Of a stretch of 31,078 nt of DNA, positions 16,675 through 21,668 are shown piece after piece (positions within the stretch are counted from its first letter, which is position 1; the number at the start of each line of letters is the position of its first letter). The DNA is from an uncultured Eubacteriales bacterium (GTDB taxonomy: Bacteria > Bacillota > Clostridia > Monoglobales > CAYZNM01): NCBI GenBank assembly GCA_964412285.1, contig CAYPOE010000001.1:1-31078 (forward strand), given 5' to 3'. A program made the translations under genes and the position numbers. The notes under the pieces were generated by a model. It saw nothing but the letters and a program-made list of their open reading frames with translations, had not been told where the DNA came from and did no database searches.

Positions 16675-16703
16675 TTGACAACGTTCGTGCAATATGATAT
16701 ACT
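16675..16703 (+). promoter_or_regulatory. Promoter of the leader-MFS-iorAB-paaK operon
   Basis: TTGACA (16675-16680), 17 nt, TATACT (16698-16703) with extended TG (16695-16696). Confidence 0.85.
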
Positions 16704-16745: not shown

Positions 16746-16835
16746 ATGTATCGTCGTATCGTGAACTTTACAGCGTGGTCTTGGCGAGGCTTTGTTGATA
16801 CAACAAGGTCGGTTTGCCATGCTCCGGCGGTATGA
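16746..16835 (+). CDS. Trp-containing attenuator leader peptide, 29 aa (MYRRIVNFTAWSWRGFVDTTRSVCHAPAV)
   Basis: SD GGAGG at 16735-16739; TGG-TCT-TGG at 16776-16784; lies between the promoter and an intrinsic terminator. Confidence 0.75.
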   Translation: MYRRIVNFTAWSWRGFVDTTRSVCHAPAV

Positions 16836-16878: not shown

Positions 16879-16916
16879 AACCTCCCGACTCATGCAAATG
16901 GGCCGGGAGGTTTTTT
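16879..16916 (+). terminator. Attenuator terminator in the 5' leader
   Basis: AACCTCCCG (16879-16887) / CGGGAGGTT (16904-16912), inner stem with GCAA loop, T6 tail; located upstream of the first structural gene. Confidence 0.88.
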
Positions 16917-16958
16917 ATATTCTAAATTTTTATTATTTTATTTTTGGAGGAACGGAAC

Positions 16959-18128
16959 ATGGAAAGGCAAGGGGAAACACAAGCTATGAAGGTGCTGATC
17001 GCCGGGGCGGCGCTACAGCTGTTCTTGGGCGTCATCTACGTCTGGAGCGTGTTCGTAATGCCCGTCGCACAGTACTTCAATCGCGAACCCGGCGAAATCA
17101 AGCTCACCTCGTCGTTTATGCTGAGCTTCTTCGTACTCGGCATCCTCGCAGGCGGTAAGCTGCAACAGCGCATCACGACGCAAAAGACCGTACTCGCGGG
17201 CGGCACACTGCTCGCGCTCGGCATGTTGATCAGTGCGTTCCTGCCCGTCGGACAGGGTCTCTTCATCTACCTGACCTACGGCGTCATGGGCGGATTCGGC
17301 GTGGGCATGGGCTACAACGCCATCATCACGACGGCGCAGCGCAACTTCCCTAAGAACCGCGGCCTCGCGACAGGCGTCAGCGTATGCGCGTTCGGCTTCT
17401 CGACCGTCATCTTCGCGCCGCTCGTCGAGTACTTATGCAAGACCGTCGGCGTGCAGTACACATTCGTGATCCTCGCCGCCGCATACATCGTCGTCGTACT
17501 CGCACTGTTCTCGTTCATCAAGATGCCCGAAAGCAGCGGCGCGACGGCACAGGCCGCGTTCAAAGGCAAGCAGTATACTGTGAGCGAGATCCTGCGCACC
17601 AAAGAGTTCTACTGCATCACGCTGTCACTCATGCTCGGCACCTCGGTCTACTTCATCCTAAACCCATCGTTCAAGACGCTCGCAGCTGAACGCGGTCTGT
17701 CCGACGGCATCGCGACGGTACTCGTCATGCTGACCGGCGTAGCCAACGCACTCGGTCGACTCGGCGTACCGCTGCTGTCCGACAAGATCGGTCGCGAACG
17801 TGCGGCATTCGTCACGATTGCCGTCACGGCGATCTGCGCGATTGCGCTGATTTTCGTCGGCGGCACCCCGCTCATCTTCATCATCGCGGTCATCGCGTTC
17901 TGCTACGGCGGATATTCGGGCATCTACCCCGTCATCACAGGCGACTACTTCGGCCTCGCCAACGTCGGCTCCAACTACGGCGCAGTCATGGTCGGATTCG
18001 CAGCTTCGGCGCTGCTGTTCCCGATCGTGATGAACATGCTGTCCGACATGACGGTCAAGTTCGTCGTACTCGCAGTCGGCGCAGTGATTGGTGCGGCGCT
18101 CACGCTGCTACTCAAGCGAAAGGGTTAA
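16959..18128 (+). CDS. OFA (oxalate:formate antiporter)-family MFS carboxylate transporter
   Basis: LQLFLGVIYVWSVF, GGFGVGMGY, RGLATGVSVCAFG, NALGR and NVGSNYG motifs. Start reset to ATG 16959 behind GGAGG. Confidence 0.85.
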   Translation: MERQGETQAMKVLIAGAALQLFLGVIYVWSVFVMPVAQYFNREPGEIKLTSSFMLSFFVLGILAGGKLQQRITTQKTVLAGGTLLALGMLISAFLPVGQGLFIYLTYGVMGGFGVGMGYNAIITTAQRNFPKNRGLATGVSVCAFGFSTVIFAPLVEYLCKTVGVQYTFVILAAAYIVVVLALFSFIKMPESSGATAQAAFKGKQYTVSEILRTKEFYCITLSLMLGTSVYFILNPSFKTLAAERGLSDGIATVLVMLTGVANALGRLGVPLLSDKIGRERAAFVTIAVTAICAIALIFVGGTPLIFIIAVIAFCYGGYSGIYPVITGDYFGLANVGSNYGAVMVGFAASALLFPIVMNMLSDMTVKFVVLAVGAVIGAALTLLLKRKG

Positions 18129-18132
18129 TCAC

Positions 18133-19776
18133 ATGAAAGCACTGTTCATGGGCAACGAAGCCATCGCGTTCGGCGCACTCGACTCCGGCGTGGCCGTGGT
18201 CACGGGATACCCCGGCACGCCGTCGAGCGAGATCCTCGACACGGTGGCCAAGCACAACGCCGAGGGGCGCGTCTACGTCGAGTGGTCGGTCAACGAGAAG
18301 GCCGCACTCGAAGTCGCGGCGGGCGCGGCGTACAGCGGCGCGCGTACGTTGGTCACGATGAAGCAGGTCGGACTCAACGTCGCATCCGACCCGCTGATGA
18401 GCCTCGCGTACGTCGGCGTCAAAGGCGGCATGGTCATCGTCGTGGCCGACGATCCCGGCCCCATCTCGTCGCAGACCGAGCAGGATACGCGCCACTGGGC
18501 GGCGTTCGCCAAGCTGCCCGTATTCGATCCGTCCACCGTGGAAGAAGCGTATTCTATCGTAGGAAAGGCGTTCGAGTACAGCGAACGCCACCGCACGCCC
18601 GTGCTGCTGCGTCCGACGACGCGCGTCTGCCACGGCTACGCGACCATGGAGCGCGCACCTGCGGCCAACGCGGTACCACCCGTGCGCGGCGACGGCTTCG
18701 TCAAAGACAGCAAGTGGGTCATCTTCCCGCGCCTCGCGTACTTGAGCCATCTCGAGATGGAGAAGCGCAACGTCGCGCTGTGCGACGAATTTTCCGACGA
18801 TCCACTCAATGTGCTGACCACCGTCGGCACGGCCGACAGCGCACAGTCGCGCATCGGCGTCGCGGTCGGCGGCGTAAGTTATGCCTATGCGATGGAAACC
18901 CTCGGCACCTTCGAGCGCGGCGTACAACTGCTCAAAGTCACCACGCCGCACCCGTTCCCCGAACGGTTGGCCGTAGACTTCCTCAAGGGCGTAGACGAAG
19001 TGCTCGTCGTCGAGGAACTCGATCCCGTGATCGAGCGACAACTCGTCTACCTCTGCGGCAAGCACAGGCTGAACGTCGCGATCAAGGGCAAACTCACGAA
19101 CGATATGCCCAACGCGGGAGAATATACCGTCGACGGCGTCAAGCGTGCGCTGTACGATTTCGCGGGTATCGCGTACGACGCGCCGCAACTGCCCGAGTCC
19201 ATCCCACTCGCGGTACGCCCGCCCGTACTCTGCAAAGGTTGCCCGCACCACGCGTCGTTCAGCGCGGTCAAGCAGGCGATGGAGGGCAAGTCTGCCGTAT
19301 TCTGCGGCGACATCGGCTGCTACACGCTCGGCAACGCGCATCCGCTCAACATGGTCGATACCTGCCTCTGTATGGGCGCGGGGATCACCGTCGCGCAGGG
19401 ATTACAGCGCACGAACGAGAATACCACGCACTTCGCGTTCATCGGCGACGGCACGTTCTTTCATTCGGGGATCACGGGCGTGATCAACGCGCTGTACAAC
19501 CACACGGATATTGTCGTCGTGATCCTCGACAACTCCACGACAGCCATGACCGGCGGTCAGCCGCACCCGGGTACGGGTCGCACGATGATGGGTGAGAGTA
19601 GTCCACGCATCAGCATCCGCAAGGTTCTGGAGGCCATCGGCGTGCCGCATATCGAAGTATGCAATCCGTATGACAAGTCGGCGGTCGACTGCGTCAAACG
19701 CATGGCAGAACTCGGCGGCGTACGCGCGATCCTCTTTGAAGCGCCGTGTGTGTCCATCAAGGGGGTGAAGGCATGA
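18133..19776 (+). CDS. iorA: Indolepyruvate:ferredoxin oxidoreductase alpha subunit, lacking the C-terminal ferredoxin domain
   Basis: MGNEAIA, GYPGTPSSE, EWSVNEK, MKQVGLNVASD, QTEQD, RPPVLCKGCPH, GDIGCY and TPP motif GDGTFFHSG..DNSTTAMTG. Start reset to ATG 18133 (547 aa). Confidence 0.92.
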   Translation: MKALFMGNEAIAFGALDSGVAVVTGYPGTPSSEILDTVAKHNAEGRVYVEWSVNEKAALEVAAGAAYSGARTLVTMKQVGLNVASDPLMSLAYVGVKGGMVIVVADDPGPISSQTEQDTRHWAAFAKLPVFDPSTVEEAYSIVGKAFEYSERHRTPVLLRPTTRVCHGYATMERAPAANAVPPVRGDGFVKDSKWVIFPRLAYLSHLEMEKRNVALCDEFSDDPLNVLTTVGTADSAQSRIGVAVGGVSYAYAMETLGTFERGVQLLKVTTPHPFPERLAVDFLKGVDEVLVVEELDPVIERQLVYLCGKHRLNVAIKGKLTNDMPNAGEYTVDGVKRALYDFAGIAYDAPQLPESIPLAVRPPVLCKGCPHHASFSAVKQAMEGKSAVFCGDIGCYTLGNAHPLNMVDTCLCMGAGITVAQGLQRTNENTTHFAFIGDGTFFHSGITGVINALYNHTDIVVVILDNSTTAMTGGQPHPGTGRTMMGESSPRISIRKVLEAIGVPHIEVCNPYDKSAVDCVKRMAELGGVRAILFEAPCVSIKGVKA

Positions 19777-20342
19777 GCTGCACGAACTTTAACTGCATTA
19801 TCGCAGGCGTAGGCGGTCAAGGCACGGTACTTGCGTCGCGGCTGATTTCGGCGGCGGCGACCGCGCGCGGGATGCACGTCGTGAGTGCAGAGACCATCGG
19901 TATGGCACAGCGCGGCGGCTCGGTACTCAGCCACATCCGCATCGGAGATGGTGCATACGCGCCGCTCATCGGCGAAGGTACCGCCGATCTGCTCATCGCG
20001 TTCGAGCCGTGCGAGGGTGCGCGCGCGCTGCGGTATCTCAAGCGCGGCGGCGTCGCGATTGTATGCGCCGATCCCGTCGCACCCGCGAGTGGCGCGTACG
20101 ACGTTGCGCCGATCCTCGACTACATCGCGGCGTATGCCGATACGCGCGTGATCGAGCCGTCGGCGATTTATAAAGAGTGCGGTTCACGGCGCGTACTCAA
20201 CGTCGCACTGCTCGGCGCGGCACTCGCCGCAGGTGTGCTGCCCGTAACCGCAGACGAGGTCGCCGATGCACTCGGCGGCATCTTTACAGACGATAAATTA
20301 GAGATGAACTTGAAGGCGCTGCGCCTTGGAGGTATGATATGA
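19773..20342 (+). CDS. iorB: Indolepyruvate:ferredoxin oxidoreductase beta subunit
   Basis: AGVGGQG, AETIGMAQRGGSV and EPCE motifs; ATGA overlap with the iorA stop. Confidence 0.92.
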   Translation: MSCTNFNCIIAGVGGQGTVLASRLISAAATARGMHVVSAETIGMAQRGGSVLSHIRIGDGAYAPLIGEGTADLLIAFEPCEGARALRYLKRGGVAIVCADPVAPASGAYDVAPILDYIAAYADTRVIEPSAIYKECGSRRVLNVALLGAALAAGVLPVTADEVADALGGIFTDDKLEMNLKALRLGGMI

Positions 20343-21544
20343 TTGAGAAATTGAAGCAAGCCATCGACTACGCGATGCGGGGGTGGTTCTATCAGAAGCG
20401 GTTCGCGAACATCGGCCCGATCCACAGCATGGACGACTTCGCGGCACTGCCGTTCACAGATAAAGATGATCTGCGCGACGCGTATCCGCTGGGACTGTCC
20501 GCCGTCGACGAGCGCGACGTCGTGCGCATCCATTCGTCGTCGGGTACGACGGGTACGCCCGTCATCATACCCTACACGCAGCGCGACGTCGACGACTGGG
20601 CGATCATGTTCAAGCGATGCTACGAGTTCGCAGGACTCACGCCGCTCGATCGCGTCCACGTCACGCCGGGCTACGGCTTGTGGACGGCGGGCATCGGCTT
20701 CCAGAACGGCGCGGAACTGCTCGGCTGCATGGTCATACCCATGGGGCCGGGGAATACCGATAAGCAACTCAAGATGATGATGGACTTGAAGTCGACCGTG
20801 CTCTGCGCGACGTCGTCGTACGCACTGCTGCTCACCGAAGAGATCACCAAACGCCGCATCAAGGACAAGATTCATCTAACCAAGGGCATCATCGGTTCGG
20901 AGCGTTGGGGCGAGAAGATGCGCAAACGCATCGCGGGTGAACTCGGCGTGCAGCTCTACGACATCTACGGGCTGACCGAGGTGTACGGCCCGGGCATCGG
21001 CATCAGCTGCGAACACGAGTGCGGGATGCACTACTGGGACGACTACCTGTACTTCGAGATCATCAATCCCAAGACGGGGCAGCTCGTACCCGAGGGCGAG
21101 ATCGGCGAACTCGTGATCACGACGCTGCGCAAAGAGGCCGCGCCGCTGATCCGCTATCGCACGCACGACCTCACGCGGTTCATCCCGGGCGGCTGTGCGT
21201 GCGGGCGCAGGTATCCGCGCATCGACACCATCATCGGGCGTTCGGATGATATGGTCAAGGTTAAGGGTGTGATGATCTACCCGAGCCGTGTCGATGAAGT
21301 GCTGTCCAAGATCGACGGCGTGTCGAGTGAGTATCAGGTCATGATCGACCACCTCGAGGGCAAGGACGTGATGACGATCTTCTTCGAGACCGAGCATCTC
21401 GAACGCAAGGCCGCGCTGCAGGACGAGGTCAAGCACGCAGTCAAGCAGTCGTTGGGACTCACCATCGTACCTAAGGCCGTCGACGTCGGCGAACTCCCGC
21501 GCAGCGAGAAAAAGACCACGCGCGTATTTGATAATCGATATTAA
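20339..21544 (+). CDS. paaK: Phenylacetate--CoA ligase family (aryl-acetate-CoA ligase)
   Basis: LPFTDKDDLRD, HSSSGTTG, YGLWTAG, DIYGLTE, PLIRYRT and GRSDDM motifs. Substrate is not determinable from sequence. Confidence 0.88.
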   Translation: MIEKLKQAIDYAMRGWFYQKRFANIGPIHSMDDFAALPFTDKDDLRDAYPLGLSAVDERDVVRIHSSSGTTGTPVIIPYTQRDVDDWAIMFKRCYEFAGLTPLDRVHVTPGYGLWTAGIGFQNGAELLGCMVIPMGPGNTDKQLKMMMDLKSTVLCATSSYALLLTEEITKRRIKDKIHLTKGIIGSERWGEKMRKRIAGELGVQLYDIYGLTEVYGPGIGISCEHECGMHYWDDYLYFEIINPKTGQLVPEGEIGELVITTLRKEAAPLIRYRTHDLTRFIPGGCACGRRYPRIDTIIGRSDDMVKVKGVMIYPSRVDEVLSKIDGVSSEYQVMIDHLEGKDVMTIFFETEHLERKAALQDEVKHAVKQSLGLTIVPKAVDVGELPRSEKKTTRVFDNRY

Positions 21545-21563: not shown

Positions 21564-21598
21564 GTAAAGCACAATCAAATGTTCTGGTTGTGCTTTAC
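21564..21598 (+). terminator. Terminator-like hairpin after paaK
   Basis: GTAAAGCACAATCA / TGGTTGTGCTTTAC, 14-bp stem with one G-U pair; AT-rich but not poly-T tail. Confidence 0.6.
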
Positions 21599-21638
21599 AT
21601 AATTACATAGACTTTACGAATAATATACACATAGAATA

Positions 21639-21668
21639 TTGCATGGTATAATTAGATATGGTATAATT
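21639..21668 (+). promoter_or_regulatory. Tandem extended -10 promoters for ppx-ppk1
   Basis: ATGGTATAATT occurs twice (21643-21653 and 21658-21668). TTGCAT (21639-21644) lies 17 nt before the second TATAAT. Confidence 0.7.

What the first reader, a model, noticed from the sequence alone, without database searches (positions are those of the whole stretch)
16959..21544. Candidate indole-3-acetate-to-tryptophan salvage operon (uptake, CoA activation, reductive carboxylation)
Seen in sequence: an OFA-type carboxylate MFS, iorA, iorB and an aryl-acetate-CoA ligase form one closely spaced unit (iorA-iorB-paaK overlap by ATGA) under the Trp attenuator. Established knowledge: IOR interconverts aryl-pyruvates and aryl-acetyl-CoAs; methanogens use aryl acids plus IOR to make aromatic amino acids, and rumen anaerobes were shown long ago to make Trp from indoleacetate. 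Inference: induction by Trp starvation fits the anabolic direction (IAA import, IAA-CoA, indolepyruvate, then Trp via an unlinked aminotransferase), so the 'paaK' may be an indoleacetate-CoA ligase. This would be a genetic route for scavenging a microbiome signalling metabolite.
Basis: partly seen in the sequence, partly recalled or inferred. Interest (0 to 1): 0.8.

Follow-up and report, generated by a model that had tools for sequence, protein, structure and literature searches.

The report
Tryptophan-starvation indoleacetate salvage operon
Four tightly packed genes (an acid importer, a two-subunit indolepyruvate oxidoreductase and an aryl-acetate-CoA ligase) most likely rebuild tryptophan from scavenged indole-3-acetate, because related operons in other anaerobes sit behind tryptophan-sensing RNA switches and this genome appears to lack the normal tryptophan pathway.

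Summary
MFS (16959-18128), iorA (18133-19776), iorB (19773-20342) and a PaaK-like ligase (20339-21544) form one unit. A promoter, a 29-codon ORF with two Trp codons and an intrinsic terminator precede it.

The anabolic reading gains strong regulatory support but no biochemical support. Sixteen related loci carry Rfam-scored T-box leaders, all with UGG (Trp) at the specifier position; two more were recognised by alignment. They include the three nearest relatives, which share the gene order.

No trpA, trpC, trpD or trpE was found in this 90.5%-complete MAG. It keeps an orphan trpB, chorismate synthase and prephenate dehydratase. Its congener has a T-box-controlled trpEGDCFBA operon and lacks this operon.

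Unresolved: no antiterminator was found in the window's leader, so "Trp attenuator" is only partly shown. The ligase and transporter substrates are inferred.

New here: IorA has lost its C-terminal two-cluster ferredoxin domain, a loss shared with the three nearest relatives.

IAA-to-Trp conversion in rumen bacteria (Allison 1974) and a biosynthetic role for IOR plus an AMP-forming ligase (PMC13285125) are published. This scan has already noted Trp-T-box ior operons on other DNA. I rate it a new variant of a known kind.

The parts
16675..16703 (+). sigma-70-like promoter (TTGACA, 17 nt, TG-TATACT)
   Evidence: Consensus scan gives 11 of 12 matches with an extended -10 TG. This is a consensus match only.
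16746..16835 (+). 29-codon leader ORF (MYRRIVNFTAWSWRGFVDTTRSVCHAPAV) with Trp codons at 16776-16778 and 16782-16784; GGAGG lies 6 nt upstream
   Evidence: Sequence and translation. The ORF lies inside a long hairpin in the MFE fold, z = -4.9. Stall-constrained folds show no antiterminator. There is no Rfam T-box or Trp_leader match.
16879..16918 (+). intrinsic terminator: 9 bp + 5 bp G+C-rich hairpin followed by U6
   Evidence: It forms in every fold computed. It lies 40 nt before the MFS start.
16959..18128 (+). MFS transporter of the OFA / bacterial monocarboxylate-transporter (SfMCT-like) type; proposed importer of the aryl acid
   Evidence: Pfam MFS_1. NCBIfam SfMCT 267 bits (cut-off 320) and OFA family 175 bits. 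Best PDB match is the SfMCT L-lactate transporter 6g9x. Homologs at 58-69% identity sit directly before iorA in 8 of 10 contexts examined.
18133..19776 (+). IorA, 547 aa, lacking the C-terminal 2x[4Fe-4S] ferredoxin domain
   Evidence: TIGR03336 covers model positions 1-534 of 595 (1-538 in the genome search) at 631 bits, cut-off 650.9. The C-terminal alignment shows a clean loss shared with L094, L106 and L107. Six Cys columns invariant across the 85 aligned IorA sequences are retained.
19773..20342 (+). IorB (POR gamma-type subunit), 189 aa; start overlaps the iorA stop (ATGA)
   Evidence: Pfam POR, E 1e-32. IOR_beta models score 138-150 bits, below their cut-offs.
20339..21544 (+). PaaK-family AMP-forming aryl-acetate-CoA ligase, 401 aa; start overlaps the iorB stop (ATGA)
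   Evidence: AMP-binding + AMP-binding_C_2. TIGR02155 scores 378 bits, cut-off 646. Best PDB match is the Bacteroides thetaiotaomicron PaaK 4r1l, E 6e-102. It is 63-78% identical to the ligases of related ior operons but only 40-42% to the genome's own two other PaaK paralogs.
21564..21598 (+). hairpin after the ligase stop; likely operon end, followed by the promoter of ppx
   Evidence: Sequence. A promoter-like site lies at 21624-21652.

Best explanation
This is a tryptophan-acquisition operon that runs the indolepyruvate:ferredoxin oxidoreductase pathway in the biosynthetic direction.

Proposed steps:
1. The MFS transporter imports indole-3-acetate (inferred).
2. The PaaK-like AMP-forming ligase makes indoleacetyl-CoA (inferred from family).
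3. IorAB reductively carboxylates it to indole-3-pyruvate using a low-potential electron donor (inferred; the enzyme family is reversible).
4. An unlinked aminotransferase makes tryptophan (candidates exist in the genome).

Expression is expected to rise when tryptophan is short. This regulatory wiring is seen in relatives: their orthologous operons sit behind Trp-specific T-boxes. In this window it is only suggested, by a Trp-codon leader ORF plus a terminator. The host appears to be a tryptophan auxotroph that can also salvage indole through an orphan TrpB.
For: 1. Operon anatomy is confirmed.

2. T-box leaders lie directly upstream of iorA or of MFS-iorA in L013, L014, L019, L022, L029, L033, L036, L037, L044, L067, L088, L089, L094, L106 and L107. 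In L040 one lies upstream of the ligase gene. All have UGG at the specifier position and none has another codon. L193 and L194 carry the same leader by alignment.

3. In the IorA tree the window groups with L094, L106 and L107 (SH-aLRT 99). All three have MFS-iorA-iorB-ligase behind a Trp T-box.

4. In the own genome (90.5% complete), trpA, trpC, trpD and trpE were not found. trpB stands alone between valS and a femX-like gene. Chorismate synthase and prephenate dehydratase are present.

5. The congener G001 has a T-box(UGG)-trpEGDCFBA operon and no window-type IorA.

6. The ligase is AMP-forming. PMC13285125 shows that the IOR-linked AMP-forming ligase of Bacteroides acts on HPA, PA and IA, and argues that such ligases favour CoA-ester synthesis and hence biosynthesis.

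7. Trp synthesis from indole-3-acetate by rumen anaerobes is published: Allison, Robinson & Baetz 1974. The citation was verified through the reference list; the paper itself was not read.

8. Class I aminotransferase candidates are present elsewhere in the genome.
Against: - There are no biochemical, expression or labelling data for this or any orthologous bacterial operon.
- IOR enzymes accept phenyl-, hydroxyphenyl- and indolepyruvate, so Trp specificity rests on regulation alone.
- The window's own leader shows no antiterminator in constrained folds. Two Trp codons in a 29-codon ORF could arise by chance with modest probability.
- IorA lacks the ferredoxin domain that 81 of the 85 aligned IorA sequences carry, so its electron path is unknown.
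- Seven of 13 T-box-ior genomes also have trpA, so the operon is not confined to auxotrophs.
- The genome is an incomplete MAG. A trp operon on one missing contig cannot be excluded.
- B. thetaiotaomicron IOR is reported to work oxidatively, Phe to phenylacetate (cited in PMC13285125).
Confidence: 0.65

Rival explanations
1. Broad aryl-acid salvage. The operon converts phenylacetate, 4-hydroxyphenylacetate and indoleacetate alike into the three aromatic 2-oxo acids. Tryptophan is merely the regulatory read-out, being the scarcest or costliest product.
For: IOR enzymes and the Bacteroides IOR-linked ligase accept all three aryl substrates (PMC13285125). Most members of the same IorA/ligase subfamily have no detected T-box, and their ligases share an identical signature at the five positions examined.
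Against: Every riboswitch found on this subfamily is Trp-specific; none is Phe or Tyr. The genome keeps chorismate synthase and prephenate dehydratase, so it should not need Phe or Tyr salvage. It also has a second, distinct SSS-paaK-iorA-iorB-paaK cluster available for other aryl acids.
Confidence: 0.17
2. Catabolic or oxidative pathway. Trp-derived indolepyruvate is oxidised to indoleacetyl-CoA for reducing power, and indoleacetate is exported by the MFS. This is the usual annotation-based reading of ior genes.
For: IOR was first described in peptide fermentation, and B. thetaiotaomicron IOR contributes to phenylacetate formation (cited in PMC13285125). Papers on gut Bacteroidota treat iorAB as IAA-producing (title).
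Against: Induction by uncharged tRNA-Trp is the opposite of what a Trp-degrading pathway needs. Energy-conserving oxidative pathways use phosphotransacylase plus kinase, or ADP-forming ligases, not AMP-forming ligases (PMC13285125). The host appears unable to make Trp.
Confidence: 0.06
3. Trp acquisition with a different transported substrate. The MFS imports tryptophan itself, indole-3-pyruvate or indole-3-lactate. The IOR and ligase then serve a side function, for example recycling internally formed indoleacetate.
For: The transporter matches only family-level models. One homolog at 62% identity sits inside an ilv (branched-chain amino acid) operon, so the subfamily is not tied to one substrate. 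Another homolog stands alone. From my own knowledge, not checked here: the eukaryotic MCT family includes an aromatic amino acid carrier.
Against: Eight of 10 homolog contexts examined place the MFS immediately before iorA. Five of these are behind one Trp T-box that covers all four genes. Many T-box-ior operons have no MFS at all, so the enzymes themselves are the Trp-regulated core.
Confidence: 0.1

Closest known systems
Anabolic IOR route to aromatic amino acids in methanogens (Methanobacterium thermoautotrophicum IOR as cited in PMC13285125; Methanococcus maripaludis aryl-acid pathway, from my own knowledge)
   Same: The same enzyme family is used in the reductive-carboxylation direction to turn aryl-acetyl-CoA into an aryl-pyruvate and then the amino acid. 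It uses exogenous aryl acids.
   Different: The known case is archaeal and serves all three aromatic amino acids. No Trp-specific regulation or dedicated MFS importer has been described. Here the IorA lacks the ferredoxin domain.
Bacteroides iorAB with adjacent AMP-forming arylacetate-CoA ligase (PMC13285125; PDB 4r1l PaaK of B. thetaiotaomicron)
   Same: It shows the iorA-iorB-ligase linkage. The ligase is of the PaaK family and was shown to act on indoleacetate, phenylacetate and hydroxyphenylacetate. The authors suggest a biosynthetic role.
   Different: The window ligase differs from 4r1l at three of the four putative pocket positions compared (P/W/F/S against S/F/F/A by the alignment). 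No Trp-responsive leader or MFS is reported for Bacteroides. B. thetaiotaomicron IOR is also reported to work oxidatively.
Tryptophan synthesis from indole-3-acetate by rumen anaerobes (Allison, Robinson & Baetz 1974, J Bacteriol 117:175; citation verified, paper not read)
   Same: The physiological conversion proposed here, in the same kind of habitat and bacterial group.
   Different: To my knowledge that work is physiological and assigned no genes.
Trp-specific T-box regulons of Firmicutes (trp operon, trpS, Trp transporters; Rfam RF00230)
   Same: Relatives of this operon carry standard T-boxes with a UGG specifier. These are closely alignable with the T-box of the congener's trpEGDCFBA operon.
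   Different: The window has no T-box, and none was found in its whole genome. It has a short Trp-codon ORF plus a terminator instead.
Anaerobic indoleacetate degradation (iaa genes, IaaB indoleacetate-CoA ligase of Aromatoleum; from my own knowledge)
   Same: It starts with CoA activation of indoleacetate by a PaaK-type ligase.
   Different: The iaa pathway breaks down the indole ring using many further enzymes. None of those is present here, and the logic of Trp-starvation control is the opposite.

Membership tests
Indolepyruvate:ferredoxin oxidoreductase, alpha subunit (NCBIfam TIGR03336) | Fused POR_N plus TPP-binding domain architecture, with the whole protein above the curated cut-off | tested here: inconclusive
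   The domains are present. The score is 631 bits against a cut-off of 650.9, and the match covers model positions 1-534 of 595. It falls short only because the C-terminus is missing.
Indolepyruvate:ferredoxin oxidoreductase, alpha subunit (NCBIfam TIGR03336) | C-terminal 2x[4Fe-4S] ferredoxin-like domain (CxxCxxCxxxC motifs) | tested here: not met
   The protein ends at ...FEAPCVSIKGVKA, where 81 of the 85 aligned IorA sequences (two of them the 40-43% paralog type) continue with the Cys motifs. Only L094, L106 and L107 share the loss.
Indolepyruvate:ferredoxin oxidoreductase, alpha subunit (NCBIfam TIGR03336) | Conserved Cys residues of the catalytic core and a TPP-binding GDG...N motif | tested here: met
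   C367, C370, C396, C411, C413 and C539 lie in columns that are invariant in 85 of 85 sequences. The GDGTFFH...LDN motif is visible in the translation.
Indolepyruvate:ferredoxin oxidoreductase, beta subunit (TIGR03334 / NF0049xx-NF0053xx) | POR gamma-type domain encoded directly after iorA | tested here: met
   Pfam POR, E 1e-32, with an ATGA overlap with iorA. The NCBIfam equivalog scores (138-150 bits) are below their cut-offs, so this is family-level membership only.
Indolepyruvate:ferredoxin oxidoreductase | Activity on indolepyruvate / indoleacetyl-CoA | not testable with these tools
   This needs an anaerobic enzyme assay.
Phenylacetate-CoA ligase PaaK (TIGR02155) | Score above the equivalog cut-off | tested here: not met
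   378 bits against a cut-off of 646.3. It is a PaaK-family member, not a PaaK equivalog.
Phenylacetate-CoA ligase PaaK (TIGR02155) | AMP-forming adenylation fold with conserved motifs | tested here: met
   AMP-binding + AMP-binding_C_2. It aligns over its full length to 4r1l and 2y27, with SSSGTTG, YGLTE and GRSDDM conserved.
Phenylacetate-CoA ligase PaaK (TIGR02155) | Aryl-pocket residues as in PaaK1 (positions recalled from memory of the Burkholderia PaaK1 structure paper) | tested here: not met
   The window has P110, W115, F121 and S187 where 2y27 has Y, F, A and A. This signature is invariant in 68 ligases of the subfamily and differs from the genome's own two PaaK paralogs. Its functional meaning is not established.
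OFA / SfMCT-type monocarboxylate MFS transporters | Score above curated cut-offs (NF049980, TIGR00890) | tested here: not met
   267 against 320 bits, and 175 against 375 bits. The best PDB relative is SfMCT 6g9x, E 4e-28. This is superfamily- or family-level placement only.
Leader-peptide transcription attenuator (trpL type) | Short translated ORF with regulatory Trp codons | tested here: met
   29 codons, preceded by a GGAGG SD, with Trp at codons 11 and 13.
Leader-peptide transcription attenuator (trpL type) | Intrinsic terminator between the leader ORF and the first gene | tested here: met
   Hairpin 16879-16912 plus U6.
Leader-peptide transcription attenuator (trpL type) | Mutually exclusive antiterminator favoured when the ribosome stalls at the regulatory codons | tested here: inconclusive
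   Constrained MFE folds keep the terminator in all states. Only weak, interrupted pairings to the terminator arms were seen by eye. There is no Rfam Trp_leader match.
T-box riboswitch (RF00230) | Match to the covariance model upstream of the operon | tested here: not met
   No hit in the window at gathering score or at E up to 10. None was found in the whole genome. Relatives do have it.

The most novel reading that the evidence does not exclude
A widespread Trp-starvation regulon in gut, rumen and sediment Clostridia is dedicated to turning the signalling metabolite indole-3-acetate back into tryptophan. It has its own importer and, in one small clade, an IOR that has shed its ferredoxin domain and so must take electrons from a different partner. 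It lets lineages that have lost trpEGDCFA live as auxotrophs on other microbes' Trp waste products. Its sensor has been swapped at least once, from a T-box to a ribosome-mediated leader.
Probability: 0.5. Interest if true: 0.7.

Novelty: new variant of a known kind. Interest (0 to 1): 0.6.

Why it matters
Indole-3-acetate is a major microbial tryptophan metabolite and a host-active signal, acting for example through the aryl hydrocarbon receptor. ior genes are routinely scored in metagenomes as IAA producers.

If a large, Trp-starvation-induced subfamily of iorAB-ligase operons consumes IAA to make tryptophan, three things follow:
- Such gene counts are being read in the wrong direction.
- The 1974 observation of IAA-to-Trp conversion in rumen bacteria gains a genetic basis.
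- Predictions of tryptophan auxotrophy and cross-feeding in gut communities need a new salvage route.

The regulatory evidence makes the question directly testable in cultured carriers: Desulfosporosinus acididurans M1 and Anaerobacterium chartisolvens.

Tried and rejected
- **Rfam scans of the window.** Scans at gathering score and of the leader at E up to 10 found no T-box or Trp_leader, only terminator-like noise.
- **Constrained folding of the leader.** I folded it with a ribosome stalled at the Trp codons or parked at the stop codon. The terminator persists in every state, so no switch model could be supported.
- **A similar leader before the orphan trpB.** The 166-nt gap holds only a 12-codon ORF with a single Trp and no terminator. 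I rejected it as evidence.
- **DNA search of leader plus MFS in 60 relatives and of 14 kb around the operon in the congener.** Neither found a homologous region. The only hit was a repeated ~100-nt element, so insertion or synteny could not be assessed.
- **Synteny test for a clean trp-operon deletion.** Using flanks of the congener's trp operon, the flanking genes map to different small contigs. Uninformative.
- **Riboswitch search on the second ior cluster on contig C52.** Nothing found.
- **Correlation of the T-box-ior operon with absence of trpA.** Seven of 13 genomes have trpA, so the operon is not restricted to auxotrophs.
- **Literature searches linking T-box and IOR.** No open paper was found. 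The 2008 T-box comparative-genomics paper and the 1974 Allison paper are not held, so prior description there cannot be excluded.
- **Census limits.** The T-box census is not exhaustive.
Full report
**Observation**

The + strand between 16959 and 21544 carries four intact genes.

- An MFS transporter at 16959-18128.
- iorA at 18133-19776. Its ATG lies 5 nt after the MFS stop and follows a GAAAGGG SD.
- iorB at 19773-20342.
- A PaaK-family ligase at 20339-21544.

The last two junctions are ATGA overlaps. Pfam and NCBIfam place the proteins as follows:

- MFS: MFS_1. The nearest models are the SfMCT L-lactate transporter and the oxalate/formate antiporter family.
- IorA: POR_N + TPP_enzyme_C, TIGR03336 at 631 bits.
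- IorB: POR gamma domain.
- Ligase: AMP-binding + AMP-binding_C_2, TIGR02155 at 378 bits.

A hairpin at 21564-21598 and a new promoter precede the next genes, ppx and ppk. Upstream and on the same strand lie an Fe-ADH-like gene, a HAD hydrolase and another MFS. A ~800-bp AT-richer gap follows. The rest of the window is housekeeping (aspS, hisS, lon, an ABC system), with nothing related to tryptophan.

**The leader**

The gap contains these features:

- A sigma-70-like promoter at 16675-16703.
- A GGAGG SD.
- A 29-codon ORF at 16746-16835 with Trp at codons 11 and 13.
- A strong terminator at 16879-16912 followed by U6.

The whole leader folds far better than shuffled controls (z = -4.9). I then forced the region around the Trp codons, or the region around the stop codon, to be unpaired. 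The terminator remained in every minimum-energy structure and no convincing antiterminator appeared. Rfam finds neither a T-box nor a Trp_leader here.

'Under the Trp attenuator' is therefore a reasonable reading of the anatomy, but it is not a demonstrated switch.

**Relatives**

A search with IorA returned 80 loci from Clostridia and a few other phyla. They carry iorA-iorB-ligase at 56-66% IorA identity and 63-78% ligase identity. The genome's own second cluster is much more distant, at about 40% for IorA and for the ligases. The window operon therefore belongs to a distinct, widespread subfamily.

T-box leaders lie directly upstream of iorA in L013, L014, L019, L022, L029, L033, L036, L037, L044, L067, L088 and L089. 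In L040 a T-box lies directly upstream of the ligase gene. In every case the codon aligned to the specifier position is UGG. The only other T-box seen, in L017, lies 3 kb away and reads AAC.

Searching with the MFS and with IorA in the protein collection found the true nearest relatives, L094/L095, L106 and L107.

- They have the same four genes in the same order.
- MFS identity is 64-69% and IorA identity is 67-68%.
- They share the same truncated IorA.
- Each has a UGG T-box in front of the MFS gene.

L193 and L194 (MFS, full-length IorA, IorB, ligase) carry the same leader, as judged by alignment to the Rfam-verified ones. In the IorA tree the window groups with L094, L106 and L107 at SH-aLRT 99. 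T-box-bearing loci are scattered through the subfamily, including early branches.

Of ten MFS-homolog contexts examined, eight are ior-linked. One stands alone and one sits inside an ilv operon.

**Genome context**

The assembly is a MAG of 2.39 Mb in 380 contigs, 90.5% complete. By AspS similarity it is a deep-branching member of the Clostridia whose nearest relatives (about 50-56% AspS identity) are mostly animal and human gut and rumen MAGs.

- Searches for trpA, trpC, trpD and trpE found nothing, while all 14 control genomes responded.
- trpB is present but stands alone between valS and a femX-like gene.
- Chorismate synthase and prephenate dehydratase are present, so the common aromatic trunk and the Phe branch appear intact (the Tyr branch was not checked).
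- The only congener held, G001 (95% complete), has a trpEGDCFBA operon behind a UGG T-box. That leader aligns closely with those of the ior operons.
- G001 has only the distant type of IorA, at 43% identity.
- The window's genome has no detectable T-box at all, whereas relatives in the order have 0-7 each.

All trp genes would normally sit on one ~7-kb operon. A single missing contig could therefore hide them. I put the auxotrophy at about 80%.

**Mechanism**

Shown directly:
- The gene order and the tight coupling of the four genes.
- Family membership of the four proteins.
- Retention of the catalytic motifs of the ligase.
- Retention of the invariant core Cys residues of IorA.
- Trp-tRNA-sensing control of the orthologs.

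Inferred:
- The transported and activated acid is indole-3-acetate.
- IorAB runs reductively.
- An unlinked aminotransferase finishes the job. Candidates exist on contigs C58 and C137. In L106 and L107 a class I aminotransferase is divergently adjacent.

The direction rests on two arguments. First, a pathway switched on by uncharged tRNA-Trp should supply tryptophan, not consume it. Second, AMP-forming ligases drive CoA-ester formation, whereas known oxidative aryl-pyruvate pathways use phosphotransacylase plus kinase or ADP-forming ligases (PMC13285125).

That paper also shows that the Bacteroides IOR-linked AMP-forming ligase accepts indoleacetate, and it suggests a biosynthetic role. Conversion of indole-3-acetate to tryptophan by rumen anaerobes was reported in 1974. 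I verified the citation but could not read the paper.

**New details**

*Ferredoxin-domain loss.* IorA here ends at ...FEAPCVSIKGVKA. It lacks the ~55-residue 2x[4Fe-4S] ferredoxin domain present in 81 of the 85 aligned IorA sequences. Only L094, L106 and L107 share this loss, which points to one ancestral deletion in a clade that stayed under selection. How electrons reach the remaining cluster is unknown.

*Ligase signature.* All 68 ligases of the subfamily have P110, W115, F121 and S187. Burkholderia PaaK1 has Y, F, A and A at the aligned positions, and the genome's two other PaaK paralogs have F/Y, F, L/A and A. I recall these positions as pocket residues, but I did not verify that, so it is a lead only.

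*Second ior cluster.* Contig C52 carries SSS symporter, paaK, full-length iorA, iorB and paaK, next to leuS. No riboswitch was found there. It is a plausible home for phenyl-type substrates.

**Rivals**

- Broad aryl-acid salvage with Trp as the read-out is the main alternative (0.17).
- A different transported substrate comes next (0.10).
- The conventional catabolic reading comes last (0.06). It conflicts with the regulatory logic and with the ligase type.

**Novelty and score**

Several things are already published: the chemistry, the archaeal genetics, the rumen physiology, and a recent suggestion for Bacteroides. The Trp-specific riboswitch link did not appear in any open paper I could search. 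The key 2008 T-box survey is not held, however.

Within this scan the same link has already been noted on other genomes (e1-2989716, e1-4837383, e1-5015650, e1-4622269). A Trp leader-peptide version was noted in Syntrophales (e1-2075612). I re-derived the T-box evidence independently here.

What this window adds:
- The four-gene form with its importer.
- The ferredoxin-less IorA clade.
- A host that appears to lack the trp pathway and has no detectable T-box, contrasted with a congener that has a T-box-controlled trp operon and lacks this operon.
- A non-T-box leader in the place where relatives carry a T-box.

I rate it a new variant of a known kind, with interest 0.6.

Noticed in passing
window 19700-19776; L094, L106, L107: IorA lacks the C-terminal 2x[4Fe-4S] ferredoxin domain, ending at ...FEAPC(V/I)(S/A)(I/V)KG.... 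Only the three nearest relatives share this, which implies one ancestral deletion and an unknown electron route to the remaining cluster.
   Followed up: partly
whole genome G000; G001:C1:28352-35026 (L189): No T-box riboswitch was detected anywhere in the window's genome. The congener has two, one of them a UGG T-box heading a complete trpEGDCFBA operon that the window's genome appears to lack.
   Followed up: yes
G000 contig C52:2058-8558 (L003, L108): A second, distant ior cluster (about 40% identity): sodium:solute symporter, paaK, full-length iorA, iorB, paaK, directly downstream of leuS. No riboswitch was found there. It is possibly the phenyl- or hydroxyphenyl-acetate counterpart.
   Followed up: partly
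An overlapping ~100-nt element has six 68-76% identical copies in the congener genome.
   Followed up: no
L040:3194-3430: In a Peptococcaceae MAG the Trp (UGG) T-box lies between iorB and the ligase gene. There the ligase alone is directly under Trp-tRNA control.
   Followed up: partly
L097:260-385 (Anaerobacterium chartisolvens) and L096:4850-4975: The leaders before MFS-iorA look like T-box remnants. The 5' start of stem I and the antiterminator/terminator are recognisable, but the specifier region seems to be deleted. Rfam gives no hit.
   Followed up: no
L192:4501-5697: A 62%-identical homolog of the MFS sits inside an ilvD-ilvB-ilvN-MFS-ilvC operon. This hints that the transporter subfamily serves acid-precursor salvage for other amino acids too.
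   Followed up: no
L106:990-2186, L107:1033-2229: A class I/II aminotransferase is divergently transcribed next to the T-box-MFS-iorAB-ligase operon in two nearest relatives. It is a candidate for the final indolepyruvate-to-Trp step. The window's genome has a 50%-identical homolog on contig C58.
   Followed up: partly
window 20339-21544 (residues 110, 115, 121, 187): All 68 ligases of this subfamily share P, W, F and S at positions where Burkholderia PaaK1 has Y, F, A and A, and where the genome's own two other PaaK paralogs also differ. This may be a specificity signature.
   Followed up: partly
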